Below, piece after piece: positions 18,001 through 27,000 of a stretch of 32,000 nucleotides of DNA. Where the stretch lies: NCBI RefSeq assembly GCF_000019345.1, contig NC_010503.1:480001-512000 (forward strand), in the 5' to 3' direction. Positions within the stretch are counted from its first letter, which is position 1; every line of letters begins with the position of its first letter. A program made the position numbers. Source of the stretch: Ureaplasma parvum serovar 3 str. ATCC 27815. GTDB lineage: Bacteria > Bacillota_I > Bacilli_A > Mycoplasmatales > Mycoplasmoidaceae.

Positions 18001-21000
18001 AAAAAATTTACGCAATCGATGTTGGTGTTGACTTATTACACCCTAGTTTAAAGAAAAGTTATAAAATTATTAATTATGAAAAAACTAATGTTAAAAATTT
18101 AGATAAATCTTATTTTTTAGAAGATTTAGATTTAATTGTTGGTGATTTATCTTTCATTTCTTTAGAGCAAATTTTTCCAATAATTAAAAAAATTTCATCC
18201 CCTAAAACTTTGCTTTTATTGTTGATAAAACCCCAGTTTGAATTAGGAAAGGACGTAGCTAGTAAATATAAAGGTCTAATTCAAAATCAAAAATTACAAC
18301 AATTAGCAATAAACAAAATAATCAATTTAGCAAAAAATTATGACTTTGAATGTAAACATTTAACTCCTACTGATATTTTTGATGAAAAAAAACAAAATCA
18401 AGAATATATGATATTTTTACAAAAGCATGAAAAATAATCATCAAAAAATCATCATGCATCTTGATATCGATGCTTTTTATGCTACTGTTAGTGAACTATT
18501 ACATCCTGAATATAAAAATTTTCCAATTGCTGTTGGTTCATTAAATTCACGCACAGGTATTATTTCTTCACCTAACTATTTAGCACGTTCTTATGGCGTT
18601 AAAGCTGCAATGCCTATCTTTTTAGCTAAAGAATTATGTCCAAATTTAATTATTTTACCTTCTGAACACAATATTTATCAATCTTACTCAAAACATTTTT
18701 TTCAAATCATTAATAAATATACAAATAAGATTGAAATAACTTCAATTGATGAATGCTTTATTGATGCAACAGATTTAGTTAAAAAATATCATAATAATAT
18801 CCGCTTGTTAGCAACAAAAATACAAAAAGAAATCAAAAACAAACTAAACCTTAGTATTTCAATTGGAATTTCATATAATAAAACAATTGCAAAAATGGCA
18901 ACGGAATTAAATAAACCTTCTGGTATATCAATTATTGATGAAAATAAAATTATTAATTTAATTTATGAATTAAATATCAATAAAATTCCCTATATTGGCG
19001 AAATAAAATCACAAGAATTATATGCGATTAACATTTTTAAAATTAAAGAATTAATTGCAACTGAAAATAAACAAAAAATTTCATTAGTTTTAGGTTCAAT
19101 ATATCAAAATTTAGTCAATGATTTAAAAGGTTTAAGTAAAATTAAAATAATTGATGAAGATATTTATAAAACAATTTCACATTCGAAAACATTTAACGAA
19201 GATTTGAATGATTTTTATGAAATTTCTAATGAAATGAACGATTTAATTTTAACTGTTACTAATCGATTAAAAAAATGTAATTTAATGACTAATAACATCA
19301 GTATTTATATTAAATATCCTAGTTTTAAAACAAAAATTAAGCAAAAACAATTAACTTATTACACTGATGATTATCAAACCATTTTTCTAGCAATTAAAAA
19401 CTTATTTAAAATAATGTATAAAGATGAAACAATACGTTTAATTGGTATCTCACTAAATAAATTAGTAAAAAAAGAAAATGTTAAAAAACAATTATTTTTA
19501 TTTGATTAATTGATTGTTTTTTAAAAATCTATTCCTTCAATTGTAATTTTTCGACCTCTTAAATTCTTATTTATAAAATGATGTTGAATTAAATAAGGTT
19601 CTATTTTTGTTTCAATTGTATATTGATCTAAACGTAAAATCTGTGCAATTGATTTTAAACCAATTTCATTATCTTGTCGATATAAAACATTTAGATAATT
19701 AATATCTTGTTCATCTAATCCAAACTCATAAATTTGAATTTTTTTAAAAATACTTTTAATATCATTAAACCCATTAATTTTAAAATCTACAACTCGTTTT
19801 AACAATCGATTTGCTAATCGTGGGATTCCTTTAGCATTATTAGCAATCAAATCAATTTCTTCTTCGTTTAAATCAAGAGGTTTTTTAAACTGTTTTATAA
19901 TTAATATGTATAAACACTTATTATTTGTTTATATTATTAAAATTTAAAGGAGCATATTGGTTTATGATTTATAAAGAAATTGTACGTAATATTATTAAAC
20001 ATCCATTAATTTTACCAGATGGAAAACACTATCATCTACACAAAATCTTAACTTCAAAAGATGAATTACGTAAAGGCGAAGTAACTTTAGTTGCAGAAAA
20101 TGGCAAAGAATATACAGTTGATTTATCTGCCTTTGTTGATCTATTAGTTGATGGTGATTGCATCTTTGATGATAACCACTCATTAGTTGCATTATATTTT
20201 GATGATGCAAAATAATTAATAATATAAAATAAAAAATATCTACTTTAGTTTTTGTGCTAAAGTAGATTTTATTTTTAAAATAAATATAATCACTAATTAT
20301 TTAGTAGACAAATAAGTTGATCATAAATAAAATTCACTAACACTAAAATCTGCTAATTCTTTAGCATCATCAATAATACCCATTTTTACTAAGTATTGTA
20401 AAAATTCGTTTTTTATATTTTGCATTCGGGTTTTTAATGATTCATTTTTAGTTTTTAATTGATTAATTTCTTCATTATTTTTATCTTTGTTAATACTAAT
20501 TTGTCATTCGTTTTCATATAACTGTTTTAATAAGTTTAAATAACGATCTTCATAGTGTGAATTTATAGGATTAGTTTCTATTAATTCATCTTTTTTAGCT
20601 TTAATGTAATCAGTAATATCATAATCTCGTCAAAGCATGTTAATAATACTAAAACGAATTTTATCATTCATTAATTTAGTATTAGATGTACTAATCGAAT
20701 AATATTTATTATCATATCAATATGCATTTACAAATAAATTGAACTTATTAAGTTGATCATTAATGTTTTCAAAAAATCGTTTTAATTCATTTTTTGTACT
20801 TGAATATTCTTTGTTATTTAAAAATGATTTTTCTAAAAAGATATTAAAATCTAATTTATTAGTTATTTCATAATTTTGATCGATTAAATTTTCTTGTTTT
20901 AAATACTTAATAATTAAATTTTTATTTTCATCATTGCTTTGATTAAGTTTTTTAAACGCTAAAAATAAAGTGTTGATTCTTGTTTTATCATATGTTTTTA

Positions 21001-24000: not shown

Positions 24001-27000
24001 AATTCAAGTTTTAATTTTTAAATGTTGCTCAAAAATTTCTGTTTTTGAAGCTTTTGTTGTATTAAAAATCAAACGAATAATTAATTTATCTTTAAAATAA
24101 TCTTTATTGCTTTCATCAATTTCAATAACACTATAACTAATTTTGTTTTGATTTTGATTGTCAACCAAATTAACTTGTTGGTTTAGTTTCGAACTAATTG
24201 TTTGTTGACTTTTATTTTTTGCTAACAAACTAAACGATCCTAAAACCATCGAACTTAAACTTATTGTCGACAATAATATTGCTTTCTTTTTAAATTTCAT
24301 ATTATTTTATCCTTAAAATTATTAAATTTTTAAAATAGGTGTTAAAAAAAGTATTAGTCAAATAAAACTAATACTTTTCTCAATTTAGTGAAATTCAAAT
24401 TACGAAACGAAAGTATTAGCTCAAAATTTTGATATTAATAATAATTTGACTAATTTTCATAACTAATAAATTCCTAAAAATAATTTTTAATGTTAACGCA
24501 ATATTATTTTATGTTTTTTATAATAATTAATCATTTAAAATGCAAAAACACCTTTAAATTAATACTTTTTAGTAAATAAAATAACTTTTTTAAATAAATA
24601 CTATTAAAACAATCTAAAAATGGTTTTGTGTAATCGCTATTATTTACTATTATTTTCAATCTTTTGCGAAGTTCCATTTTGTATTTTTTTAACTTCTTCA
24701 ATTAGTTTTTTTAGTTTTTTATTATAAAGATCTAACGTATAAGAAGACACATTATTATTGTTAATTCCTTGTTCAACAAATTTAGTAAATTTTTTTAATC
24801 TTTCTACTTTAGATTCGTTATTTGTTTTTCCATTTTTTGTTTCAGTAATTTTCTTACTTTCTTCAATTAATTCTTTAGCTTCAGGAATATATAATTTTTT
24901 ATCAACAATCGTAAAAATCTTAACACTAAAATTTTCAATATCTTTTGTGAACACCCTTTCTTGATTATTATCTAATTTTAAATAGTTAATTAACTCTTTT
25001 GGTTTTAATAAAAAATCATTAGAATAAGCTAAATCAATATTTTCTAGATTATCAATTGTTAATGTTTGATTTGCACTAAGTTTTAAACTGACTTTAGTAT
25101 TTATTCAAGGATCATTTTTATAACTATTTAAAACATCTTGAATTGTTTGGGTTTTATTAGTTTTCTTTGCTTGATCATTTTCACTATTAACTTTAGTATT
25201 AAATTCTTTTAGATGTTTAATGAAATCTTTGAATAAATAAGTTTTTTTAAAGTTTGATAGAATTGTTTGTTTGATTTGATCAACAATTGAACTAATTTTA
25301 GTATTAGCATCTTCAAATTTTTTAGTTAATTCATTATTAAGATTATTTGCACTATCAATCGTTAAGCTATTTGTATTAAAGCTAAATAAACTAATAATTG
25401 ATTGTAAATTTTCAATTTGATTTTCTAAACCATTATATGTAGCTTTTGAACTATTGTTTTTGTCTTTTTGGATATTTTGTTGTTTTTCAATACTATAGTA
25501 AGGATTGTAATCGTCTGGTTTTAATGATTGAATAATACTAATTAATTTATTAATACTATTTTCACTATCTAATGCAATTGTATTTAAACCTTGTAAATAA
25601 TTTTGTAAATCATTTAATAATTTATTAGTTAAAGATTTAATTTGTTCAATATCTAATGATTTTTTAACATTAACAATATTAGTGATATTCTTGTTTAGAT
25701 TTTGTTTTAAATTAGTTAATTTTAATTGATCAAATCATAAAAAACTATAATTTTGTTGGTAAATAGTATTAATAACATTAACAATATCATCTAATTTTTT
25801 AATAAAAGGTAAAGCTTTTAGTTCTTTGTTAATTAAATCATTAATATCATTTAATTTAGTGTAAATTAATTTAAAATCTTCATATAGTTTTTTAAAATTA
25901 GCTTTTGTGTTATTATTAACTAATTTTTGAATATCACTTTCAATCTCGACAATATTTTTATTTGATCCAGATGTTTTAATTAAATTTTTAATTTTATTAG
26001 CTAAATCTAAAATTGTTTTTTGAATTAAAGCTTTAGTGTGCAATCTTTTTTGATGAGCATCAGATTTTAGTTTATCAATTATTGTAGTATCAACACTTGC
26101 TTGATTAAGTAATTTTTCATATTGATTTAAAAAATCTTGTAATTGTTTTTTAGTGTTTTCTAATTCAACAACATCTATTAAATCACTCATGTTTTTGATT
26201 GAATCTAATTCATTTAAAACACTAACTTGTGTAATTAAATTTTTAATTGTTTGTTGTTCTTGTTTTAATTTTTGCTCTGATAATTTATTAATGTTTTCTA
26301 AATTTGATTTAAGAGTTTGATTATATATCTTTTTAAAATCTTCATAAGATGATTGATCAACTATTTCTTTTAATAAAACAGCTTTATTTAAACTTGATTG
26401 TAATTCTTCTTTAGCTTTTTGTTTTGTATCAACTTTTGCACAAGCTGTAATTATTGTTGCTAACAAAGGTATAGCACTAATCATACTTAGTTTTAATCAA
26501 ATTCATTTGTATTTTTTGTGTTTCATATTTAAAACTCCAAGAATTAATTATTCAATTACTAGCTTAACTTCTTAGTTATTTAAGTATTATTCAAATTAAA
26601 CGTTTAAATATTTTAACATTATTAAAATAAAAATCTACTCTAGTTTTATTCTAAAGTAGATTGATCTAAAGTTAGATATTCTTAAAGTAACAAATCTAAT
26701 AAATGTTTAATGTCAATAATAAATTTTACTTTATTCGCAACTAGTTGTTCTAGAGTTTTGTTAATACTTGTGTTTTTTAAAAGATCAAAATTAACTTTTT
26801 TATTTAAAACAGCATTTGAACTAGCTCCATAAAAATAAAAATCTTTTTGATTTTTCATATTAATATAACAAACTAAAATCGTAATTTCTACTTTGTCTAA
26901 TTCATCTAATATAGATTATCGTTATTGTTTTTATTTTCAATATATCGTTGATATGATTCAATTAATAATTTTGTTTTTTTCATAATCATAATCACTATAT

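What the first reader, a model, noticed from the sequence alone, without database searches (positions are those of the whole stretch)
20297..24300. Island cargo operon: signal-peptide protein / S8 subtilisin-like protease / lipoprotein, invisible in the standard-code ORF track
Under code 4, three overlapping minus-strand genes appear: 24300..23050 (416 aa, signal peptide), 23096..21744 (450 aa) and 21796..20297 (499 aa, lipobox LIIGC). The middle protein carries subtilase motifs in the correct order: KIINHSYG, FSAGNSY, APGEGI and GTSFSAPIVTG. Extracellular subtilases are uncommon in minimal Mollicute genomes, so one carried on an island is a candidate host-interaction factor. Ureaplasma has a long-known serine-type IgA1 protease activity. 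To my knowledge, no gene was identified for it in the early genome analyses. Linking that activity to this locus is pure speculation. It is weakened because I cannot find clear catalytic Asp and His motifs.
Basis: partly seen in the sequence, partly recalled or inferred. Interest (0 to 1): 0.65.

Follow-up and report, generated by a model that had tools for sequence, protein, structure and literature searches.

The report
Broken subtilase pseudogene on dispensable island
The "subtilisin-like protease" in this Ureaplasma parvum window is the back half of a single ancestral gene of about 1009 amino acids; a 473-base deletion cut out two of its three catalytic residues, so it cannot be an active protease and is a very poor candidate for the unidentified IgA1 protease.

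Summary
With TGA read as Trp, three overlapping minus-strand ORFs lie at the stated coordinates, and the middle one matches Pfam Peptidase_S8 (E = 9e-16).

- The window is U. parvum serovar 3 ATCC 700970. The ORFs are UU442, UU441 and UU440, and UU441 is already named "S8 family serine peptidase" in public records.
- UU442 and UU441 are two pieces of one ancestral 1009-aa gene. Other U. parvum strains carry them in one frame, with 158 extra codons that hold the acid (VGILE) and His (DNHANTVAS) motifs.
- This strain has a net 473-bp frameshifting deletion at 23082/23083 that removes exactly those motifs.
- All 11 U. parvum copies examined carry at least one disabling lesion, in three main combinations. 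The flanking lipoprotein genes carry none.
- The U. urealyticum paralogue is broken too.
- The 8.76-kb segment sits between 473-bp direct repeats and is absent from several strains, including clinical isolate SV3F4.

Side observation: this sparse clade has an invariant Glu where subtilisin has Asp32.

The parts
23050..24300 (-). ORF A (UU442, AAF30854): the 5' fragment of the ancestral S8 gene. It holds the signal peptide, a possible pro-region and a long U. parvum-specific insert. After the deletion junction it runs out of frame for about 10 codons to a TAA stop.
   Evidence: Other strains continue the same reading frame into the S8 domain (P0008 866 aa, P0006 801 aa). No Pfam or NCBIfam match.
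23081..23083 (-). Deletion junction. A net 473 bp (mod 3 = 2) present in other U. parvum strains is missing here (...CGTGAAAAT|T|GAGAAAGTC...). The lost stretch encodes 158 aa, including YVKVGILEVDG (acid motif) and DNHANTVAS (His motif).
   Evidence: L012 has 474 nt between anchors that are 1 nt apart in the window; the identical junction occurs in L002.
21744..23096 (-). ORF B (UU441, AAF30853): the 3' fragment of the S8 gene. It keeps the INHSYG, SAGN (oxyanion Asn) and GTSFSAP (Ser) motifs and the C-terminal beta-rich domain. It lacks the acid and His motifs, a signal peptide and its own start context; the ATG at 23096 is a chance ATG inside AAT-GAT-CGT of frame A.
   Evidence: Pfam S8 positions 80-274/288 only. 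No Shine-Dalgarno-like sequence is seen upstream (sequence).
20297..21796 (-). ORF C (UU440, AAF30852): a 499-aa predicted lipoprotein (lipobox LIIGC). It is intact in every copy examined and overlaps the end of the S8 gene by 53 nt.
   Evidence: no indel or nonsense in 10 loci. Weak homology to the 609-aa lipoprotein downstream of the U. urealyticum paralogue (E = 7e-7 over 69 aa).
20238..20267 (-). Terminator-like hairpin just downstream of the stop codon of C; the likely end of the A-B-C transcription unit.
   Evidence: 2 terminator-like hits against 0.2 expected in shuffles; both hits are this one palindrome read on each strand.
24640..26526 (-). ORF D (AAF30855; probably UU444, since UU443 is not listed in the table and the assignment is by order): a 628-aa predicted lipoprotein upstream on the same strand. 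It is part of the island and intact in all copies.
19404..19876 (.). Left copy of the direct repeat that bounds the island. It contains the true 3' end of dinP and a duplicated 3' fragment of ruvB (UU438).
   Evidence: (AAF30850, a 109-aa RuvB fragment).
28640..29113 (.). Right copy of the direct repeat. It contains a duplicated 3' fragment of dinP and the true 3' end of ruvB.
19877..28639 (.). Strain-variable 8,763-bp segment between the repeats. It holds a small ORF, C, B, A, D, a 202-aa ORF and hsdS fragments. It is absent, leaving a single repeat copy, in SV3F4 and three other assemblies.
   Evidence: Supplement of PMC6191088, which lists UU440, 441, 442, 444, 445, 446 and 447. hsdS fragments by Pfam.

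Best explanation
The locus is a decaying pseudogene of a secreted, Mollicute-type S8 subtilase, followed by an intact lipoprotein gene. It lies on a dispensable 8.76-kb segment of the U. parvum chromosome.

Ancestral gene: one gene of 3030 nt (1009 aa) encoded a signal peptide, an N-terminal region, an S8 catalytic domain with a Glu-His-Asn-Ser active site, and a C-terminal beta-rich domain.

In this strain: a 473-bp deletion removed the codons for the acid and His residues and shifted the frame. This produced two apparent ORFs, UU442 and UU441. At most, a truncated, non-catalytic 416-aa secreted fragment could be made from the first. The second has no signal peptide and no evident ribosome-binding site, and only the Asn and Ser of its active site remain. 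No protease activity can come from this locus.

Shown: the deletion, the loss of the motifs, the other lesions in other strains, and the absence of the island from some strains.
Inferred: the lack of expression or function of the fragments, the mechanism of the deletion, and the original extracellular role.
For: 1. Other U. parvum alleles read A and B in one frame, with 158 extra residues carrying VGILE and DNHANTVAS.
2. DNA alignment places a net 473-bp deletion at window 23082/23083.
3. Alignment with subtilisin BPN' and 14 family members shows that B lacks the Asp32 and His64 columns and keeps Asn155 and Ser221. phmmer against PDB subtilisin DY aligns the family Glu to Asp32 and the family His to His64.
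4. Pfam covers only positions 80-274 of the S8 profile in B, but positions 33-273 in the reconstructed protein.
5. All 11 U. parvum copies examined are disrupted:
   - the window carries the 473-bp deletion only;
   - L002 carries that deletion plus Q92*, a 1-bp insertion at codon 124 and a 1-bp deletion at codon 909;
   - six loci, including ABES01000001 (which I take to be serovar 1 ATCC 27813), carry Q92* plus the 1-bp deletion at codon 909;
   - three loci carry an 8-bp deletion plus an 87-bp in-frame deletion in the S8 core.
6. The longest protein in the 90%-identity cluster is 866 aa, against 1009 aa expected.
7. The flanking genes C and D have no indel or nonsense mutation in the same loci.
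8. The 450-aa form is deposited from independent genomes: ATCC 700970, ATCC 27815, serovar 14 ATCC 33697, OMC-P162 and others. The deletion is therefore not an assembly error.
9. The U. urealyticum paralogue is also broken, with different lesions in two strains.
10. The whole segment is absent from SV3F4 and three other assemblies.
Against: - No expression data were available, so a non-catalytic role for the fragments cannot be excluded, for example A as a secreted protein.
- pN/pS among alleles of the S8 gene is about 0.58 from only 25 substitutions. That is not clearly neutral, and it is similar to the intact neighbour C at 0.47.
- Some single-base lesions lie in A/T runs and could in principle be sequencing errors. 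The 473-bp, 87-bp and 8-bp deletions and the Q92* substitution cannot be.
- Only a sample of strains was examined. An intact allele could exist somewhere in the population.
Confidence: 0.9

Rival explanations
1. Active secreted subtilase and host-interaction factor, possibly the Ureaplasma IgA1 protease. It would be made either from B alone or from an A-B fusion produced by ribosomal frameshifting within the 47-nt overlap.
For: - B is a genuine S8 homologue that keeps the Ser and oxyanion-Asn motifs.
- A has a signal peptide.
- The ureaplasmal IgA1 protease is a cell-surface serine protease whose gene is still unknown (PMC8593674; PMC3511179).
Against: - The codons for the acid and His residues are physically absent, so no frameshift can restore them.
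- Serovars 3 and 14 carry the deletion, and the ABES01000001 allele carries a nonsense plus a frameshift. IgA protease activity was nevertheless reported for all 13 serovars tested.
- The island is missing from clinical isolates.
- The U. urealyticum paralogue is broken as well.
Confidence: 0.02
2. An intracellular toxin of the mycoplasma AAA-ATPase/subtilisin-like toxin-antitoxin type (IetA/IetS-like; MMCAP2_0132/0133).
For: - An S8-domain toxin-antitoxin module is functional in several mycoplasmas, and a homologue is reported in U. urealyticum (PMC8562856).
- Such modules sit on variable regions flanked by direct repeats.
Against: - There is no AAA-ATPase gene next to the S8 gene here or in any homologous locus.
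- The ancestral protein has a signal peptide, and its intact relatives are predicted secreted proteins of 630-700 aa.
- The PADLOC scan gives only a weak, generic 'subtilase' hit (E = 1.6e-6 over about 80 residues).
Confidence: 0.02
3. A phase-variable surface protease: the frameshifts would be reversible ON/OFF switches rather than decay.
For: - Two of the lesions lie in homopolymer runs: the 1-bp deletion after A7 at codon 909 and the 1-bp insertion in a T run at codon 124.
- Mollicutes commonly use such switches.
Against: - The lesions that define each haplotype are irreversible: the 473-bp, 87-bp and 8-bp deletions and a CAA-to-TAA nonsense.
- No allele in the ON state was seen.
Confidence: 0.04

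Closest known systems
Peptidase family S8 (subtilases; Pfam PF00082), architecturally closest to subtilases with a C-terminal beta-domain such as KP-43, SubHal, Tk-SP and Kex2/furin
   Same: - Significant S8 profile match.
- Conserved His64, Asn155 and Ser221 columns in the family.
- Signal peptide, then an N-terminal region, a catalytic domain and a C-terminal beta-rich domain.
- Best PDB fold matches of a low-confidence model are KP-43 (1wmd), SubHal (5fax), Tk-SP (3afg) and Kex2.
   Different: - The family has Glu where all classical subtilases have Asp32.
- The His motif reads (D/S)HA(T/N)xVA rather than HGTHVAG.
- The copy in this window lacks both of these motifs altogether and is split into two ORFs.
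'S8 family serine peptidase' genes of a few Mycoplasma species (Mesomycoplasma neurolyticum WP_129719985, Mycoplasma testudineum WP_094254294, Mycoplasma sp. 1654_15, Ca. M. pogonae, Mycoplasma sp. 5370/613B)
   Same: - They are the closest intact relatives: 31-36% identity to the matched region, among only 20 hits at E <= 0.001 in 1.84 billion representative proteins.
- They share the Glu-His-Asn-Ser motifs and the C-terminal domain.
- Where looked up, the S8 gene is followed by a lipoprotein gene.
   Different: - They are intact, at 630-700 aa.
- The U. parvum gene has an extra insert of about 330 aa before the catalytic domain, and it is broken.
- The downstream lipoproteins share no significant sequence similarity with C.
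U. urealyticum S8 paralogue beside rpsF-ssb-rpsR (WP_337835724 / ACI60024 fragments)
   Same: - 46% identity to B.
- The same order: N-terminal region, S8 domain, C-terminal domain, then a downstream lipoprotein that is weakly homologous to C.
- It is also fragmented.
   Different: - It lies at a different chromosomal site.
- It keeps the acid (IGIFE) and His (LHANNVAS) motifs.
- It is interrupted by other strain-specific stops and frameshifts.
Bacterial IgA1 proteases (Neisseria/Haemophilus IgA1 serine-type autotransporters, streptococcal metalloproteases, Thomasclavelia IgAP)
   Same: Only the general idea of a surface or secreted protease in a mucosal bacterium.
   Different: There is no sequence relationship, and the locus cannot encode an active enzyme. 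No functional link is supported.

Membership tests
Peptidase S8 (subtilase) - homology | Significant match to the S8 profile, with conserved motifs in the canonical order | tested here: met
   PF00082 matches B at E = 9.1e-16 and the reconstructed protein at E = 2.2e-18. The INxS-G, S-x-G-N and G-T-S-x-x-x-P motifs align with subtilisin BPN'.
Peptidase S8 (subtilase) - active enzyme | A complete catalytic triad (acid, His, Ser) plus the oxyanion Asn, all in one polypeptide | tested here: not met
   In the window only the Asn (FSAGN) and the Ser (GTSFSAP) remain. The acid and His motifs lie in the 473 bp that are deleted.
Peptidase S8 (subtilase) - active enzyme | Asp as the catalytic acid (the Asp32 position of subtilisin) | tested here: not met
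   Even in intact relatives this column is an invariant Glu: 15 of 15 family sequences that cover it. E aligns to D32 of subtilisin DY. Whether Glu supports catalysis was not testable here.
Secreted/surface protease | An N-terminal signal peptide on the same polypeptide as the catalytic domain | tested here: not met
   The signal peptide is on ORF A only, judged by inspection because no predictor was available. B starts at a chance internal ATG. In the other haplotypes the signal peptide is cut off by Q92* or by an 8-bp deletion.
Functional gene (as opposed to pseudogene) | An uninterrupted ORF conserved among strains | tested here: not met
   0 of 11 loci are intact, with at least 5 distinct lesions. 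The longest cluster member is 866 aa, against 1009 aa expected. Neighbouring genes C and D are intact in the same loci.
Genomic island / strain-variable segment | Presence/absence polymorphism with defined boundaries | tested here: met
   473-bp direct repeats lie at 19404-19876 and 28640-29113. Four assemblies have one repeat copy and none of 19877-28639. The genes are listed in the indel table of PMC6191088. No integrase or tRNA gene is present in the window.
IetS-like S8 toxin of the AAA-ATPase/S8 toxin-antitoxin module | An adjacent AAA-ATPase antitoxin gene and a cytoplasmic S8 protein | tested here: not met
   No AAA-ATPase neighbour is present in the window or in homologous loci. The ancestral protein has a signal peptide. 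PADLOC gives only a weak generic subtilase hit.
Ureaplasma IgA1 protease | The gene is present and intact in all serovars that show the activity, and it cleaves the IgA1 hinge | tested here: not met
   The gene is broken in serovars 3 and 14 and in ABES01000001, which I take to be serovar 1. It is absent from serovar 3 strain SV3F4. The activity is reported for all 13 serovars tested. The enzymatic assay is not testable with these tools.
Subtilase N-terminal propeptide (I9-like) in ORF A | Detectable homology of A's N-terminus to the pro-regions of family members | tested here: inconclusive
   No Pfam hit. A home-made profile of family N-termini scores A at 6.5 bits, within the range of shuffled controls (best shuffle 9.1 bits). 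blastp against the U. urealyticum N-terminus gives E = 0.089.

The most novel reading that the evidence does not exclude
The relic belongs to a small, undescribed clade of secreted S8 subtilases. Members were found in a few Mycoplasma/Ureaplasma species and in some metagenomic sequences that look Firmicutes-like by amino-acid composition (my impression; their origin was not determined). The clade uses an invariant Glu in place of the universal catalytic Asp, giving a Glu-His-Ser triad. In the loci examined the S8 gene is followed, often with overlap, by a lipoprotein gene that could act as its membrane anchor, inhibitor or substrate-presenting partner. The human ureaplasmas are caught in the act of losing both of their paralogous copies.
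Probability: 0.4. Interest if true: 0.45.

Novelty: already known. Interest (0 to 1): 0.2.

Why it matters
The result mainly closes a tempting lead. An S8 domain on a variable island in Ureaplasma looks like a candidate for the IgA1 protease, whose gene has been missing for about 40 years. Here it is a dead gene, so the search should go elsewhere, for example to other predicted proteases. Paralanov et al. [quoted passage not shown]

It also corrects public annotation. UU441 and its equivalents are named 'S8 family serine peptidase' and UU442 'hypothetical protein', although they are two halves of one pseudogene.

The only forward-looking value is the Glu-for-Asp subtilase clade and its recurrent lipoprotein neighbour, which would need biochemical work on an intact Mycoplasma member.

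Tried and rejected
2. The word-index search with the 1009-aa reconstruction and with C saturated at 8000 candidates. It returned only U. parvum clusters, so the distribution of C outside U. parvum remains poorly sampled.
3. NCBIfam gave only sub-threshold hits, to mycosin and PatA.
4. The AlphaFold2 model of P0005 was poor: pLDDT 53 overall and below 40 over most of residues 1-300. One reason is that P0005 itself carries the 87-bp core deletion. I used the model only for the gross architecture, not for the triad geometry.
5. The profile test for a propeptide in A was not significant against shuffled controls.
6. Promoter-like hits are at chance level in this AT-rich DNA (46 found against 48.6 expected). 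I make no claim about promoters.
7. Full-text literature searches for Glu-His-Ser subtilases and for UU440-UU443 found nothing relevant.
8. I considered and rejected programmed frameshifting, a split enzyme, an assembly artefact, phase variation and an IetS-like toxin, as set out under the rival explanations.

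
Full report
**Identity of the window.** The window has 24% G+C. It needs TGA = Trp to give long ORFs, and it carries the urease cluster on the minus strand at about 10795-16146. The four proteins of interest are exact matches to records of Ureaplasma parvum serovar 3 ATCC 700970: A = AAF30854, B = AAF30853, C = AAF30852 and D = AAF30855. 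[quoted passage not shown] By gene order, C = UU440, B = UU441 and A = UU442. NCBI and UniProt already call B 'S8 family serine peptidase' or 'Peptidase S8/S53 domain-containing protein'.

**Checking the observation.** They contain 5, 5 and 8 in-frame TGA codons respectively.
- A starts with a typical signal sequence, and C has the lipobox LIIGC.
- The four quoted subtilase motifs are present in B.
- Pfam Peptidase_S8 matches B at E = 9.1e-16, but only from profile position 80 onward.
- No other frame upstream of B contains the missing part.

**What A and B really are.** The 90%-identity cluster that contains B also holds longer U. parvum proteins of 801 and 866 aa. Their sequences run from the middle of A straight into B in one frame. 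Between '...LMNLNDREN' (in A) and 'EKVHLYSLD...' (in B) they have 158 extra residues, which include 'YVKVGILEVDGIV' and 'SIRDNHANTVASFITG'.

DNA alignment of three such loci (L012-L014) with the window shows that the window lacks a net 473 bp at 23082/23083. L012 has 474 nt between anchors that are 1 nt apart in the window, and 473 mod 3 = 2. The deletion has two effects:
- It removes the N-terminal third of the catalytic domain.
- It shifts the frame, so frame A ends about 10 codons later at a TAA. The 'start codon' of B is a fortuitous ATG inside AAT-GAT-CGT of frame A, with no Shine-Dalgarno-like sequence upstream.

Restoring the 474 nt gives a single 3030-nt ORF of 1009 aa, whose Pfam S8 match extends to profile positions 33-273.

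**Location of the catalytic residues.** His64, Asn155 and Ser221 are conserved. The Asp32 column is Glu in every one of the 15 family sequences that cover it: VGILE, IGIFE, VGVLE and similar. An independent phmmer alignment to PDB subtilisin DY likewise puts the Glu on Asp32 and the His on His64. B has gaps in the Asp32 and His64 columns. The triad is therefore complete (as Glu-His-Ser) in homologues and incomplete in this window.

**Is any U. parvum allele intact?** I compared 11 loci with the reconstructed reference. Each has at least one disabling lesion.
- Window type: the 473-bp deletion only. This type includes ATCC 700970, ATCC 27815, serovar 14 ATCC 33697, OMC-P162 and others, judged by their identical or near-identical 450-aa product.
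- CP021987 (L002): the same deletion, plus Q92* (CAA to TAA), a 1-bp insertion at codon 124 and a 1-bp deletion at codon 909.
- Six loci, including ABES01000001 (which I take to be serovar 1 ATCC 27813): Q92* plus the codon-909 frameshift. This separates the signal peptide from an otherwise motif-complete domain and truncates the C-terminal domain.
- Three loci: an 8-bp deletion at codons 113-116 plus an 87-bp in-frame deletion that removes a core strand of the S8 fold.

The longest product in the cluster is 866 aa, not 1009 aa. In the same loci the flanking lipoprotein genes C and D carry no indel or stop at all. Substitution counts are small: 18 non-synonymous against 7 synonymous, giving pN/pS of about 0.58. 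On their own they do not discriminate.

The 46%-identical paralogue in U. urealyticum sits at another site, next to rpsF-ssb-rpsR. It keeps IGIFE and LHANNVAS but is also interrupted. One strain has a stop and a frameshift between the INHSYG and STGND motifs. Another has a different frameshift further upstream.

**The island.** Window 19404-19876 and 28640-29113 are 98% identical direct repeats of about 473 bp. Each is made of the convergent 3' ends of dinP and ruvB. This is why a 109-aa 'RuvB' fragment (AAF30850) sits next to dinP. Between the repeats lie 8,763 bp containing C, B, A, D, a 202-aa ORF and two hsdS fragments.

In serovar 3 strain SV3F4 (AP014584), in JBBEUZ01 and in two read-archive assemblies, dinP abuts ruvB. 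The alignment shows exactly one repeat copy and none of 19877-28639. SV3F4 came from a patient with a history of infectious abortion, so the segment is dispensable in vivo. The data do not say whether the polymorphism arose by insertion with duplication or by recombination between the repeats. No integrase or tRNA gene lies in the window. A terminator-like hairpin at 20238-20267 follows C, which fits A-B-C having been one transcription unit.

**Relatives elsewhere.** An exhaustive HMMER search of 1.84 billion representative proteins with an 801-aa allele gave only 20 hits at E <= 0.001. The named ones are intact 'S8 family serine peptidases' of 628-698 aa from Ca. Mycoplasma pogonae, Mesomycoplasma neurolyticum, Mycoplasma sp. 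1654_15, M. testudineum and Mycoplasma sp. 5370/613B. All have a signal peptide and the Glu-His-Asn-Ser motifs.

In M. neurolyticum the gene is tandemly duplicated, and each copy overlaps a 229-aa lipoprotein gene. In M. testudineum a 332-aa lipoprotein gene follows. These lipoproteins are not significantly similar to C. The U. urealyticum downstream lipoprotein is weakly similar to C (E = 7e-7).

A low-confidence AlphaFold2 model (pLDDT 53) shows an S8 core plus a C-terminal beta-rich domain. Its best PDB matches are KP-43, SubHal, Tk-SP and Kex2/furin.

**The IgA1 protease idea.** The literature confirms that the gene for the cell-surface, serine-type IgA1 protease of Ureaplasma is still unknown (PMC8593674) and that activity was found in all 13 serovars tested (PMC3511179). 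A gene cannot account for that activity if it lacks two catalytic residues in serovars 3 and 14, is truncated in the ABES01000001 allele, is absent from some serovar 3 isolates, and has a paralogue in U. urealyticum that is also broken.

The other known mycoplasma S8 system is the AAA-ATPase/S8 toxin-antitoxin pair (PMC8562856). It has a different architecture: there is no AAA-ATPase neighbour here, and PADLOC gives only a weak generic hit.

**Verdict.** The S8 homology is real and already annotated. The gene is a pseudogene relic on a dispensable, already catalogued, strain-variable segment. Interest is low. The one point that might merit follow-up elsewhere is the invariant Glu at the Asp32 position in this small clade and its recurrent lipoprotein neighbour. 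My full-text searches found no paper describing either.

Noticed in passing
window 19404-19876 and 28640-29113 (repeats); 19877-28639 (variable segment): Direct repeats of about 473 bp, made of the convergent 3' ends of dinP and ruvB, flank 8.76 kb. SV3F4 (L024), JBBEUZ01 (L026) and two Logan assemblies (L025, L027) have a single repeat copy and lack the segment. The direction of the event (insertion or deletion) is unresolved.
   Followed up: yes
alignment A2; missing from the window at the 23082/23083 junction: Every member of this S8 clade that covers the position has Glu where subtilisin has the catalytic Asp32 (VGILE, IGIFE, VGVLE). His64, Asn155 and Ser221 are conserved. My full-text searches found no paper describing this.
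   Followed up: partly
L001 6400-9100 and L028 3200-5900 (U. urealyticum): A 46%-identical paralogue lies next to rpsF-ssb-rpsR, followed by a 609-aa lipoprotein gene. It is broken by different stops and frameshifts in the two strains, so both human Ureaplasma species carry decayed copies.
   Followed up: partly
L021 2977-8716 (M. neurolyticum LR214951); L022 6001-9581 (M. testudineum): Intact relatives are followed by a lipoprotein gene. In M. neurolyticum the S8 + 229-aa lipoprotein pair is tandemly duplicated, with a 14-nt overlap within each pair. This recurrent pairing has no detectable sequence similarity between the lipoproteins.
   Followed up: partly
window 27750-28658 (+): Two adjacent hsdS (type I R-M specificity subunit) fragments with an 86-nt internal direct repeat (27769-27854 and 28564-28649). 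In strain L012 the equivalent region has a phage-integrase-family recombinase next to the hsdS genes, which suggests a shufflon-like hsd locus that has degenerated here.
   Followed up: no
window 29369-29370 (ruvB); L024 7140-8631: ruvB has a 2-bp deletion in strain CP021987 relative to the window. In the island-negative assemblies where ruvB is called (L024, L025, L027) it is only 242 aa, against 312 aa in the window; ruvA is shortened to 157 aa, against 195 aa, only in SV3F4 (L024). These may be frameshifts or long-read sequencing errors; I did not examine them.
   Followed up: no
window 27050-27658 (-): A 202-aa ORF (probably UU445) inside the island has no Pfam match. The 500 bp between it and D (26548-27049) is full of stop codons in all frames of the minus strand.
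   Followed up: no
window 20238-20267: A perfect 12-bp-stem palindrome with T-runs on both sides (a bidirectional terminator-like hairpin) lies immediately after the stop codon of C. It is the only terminator-like site in 19900-24700 (0.2 expected).
   Followed up: partly
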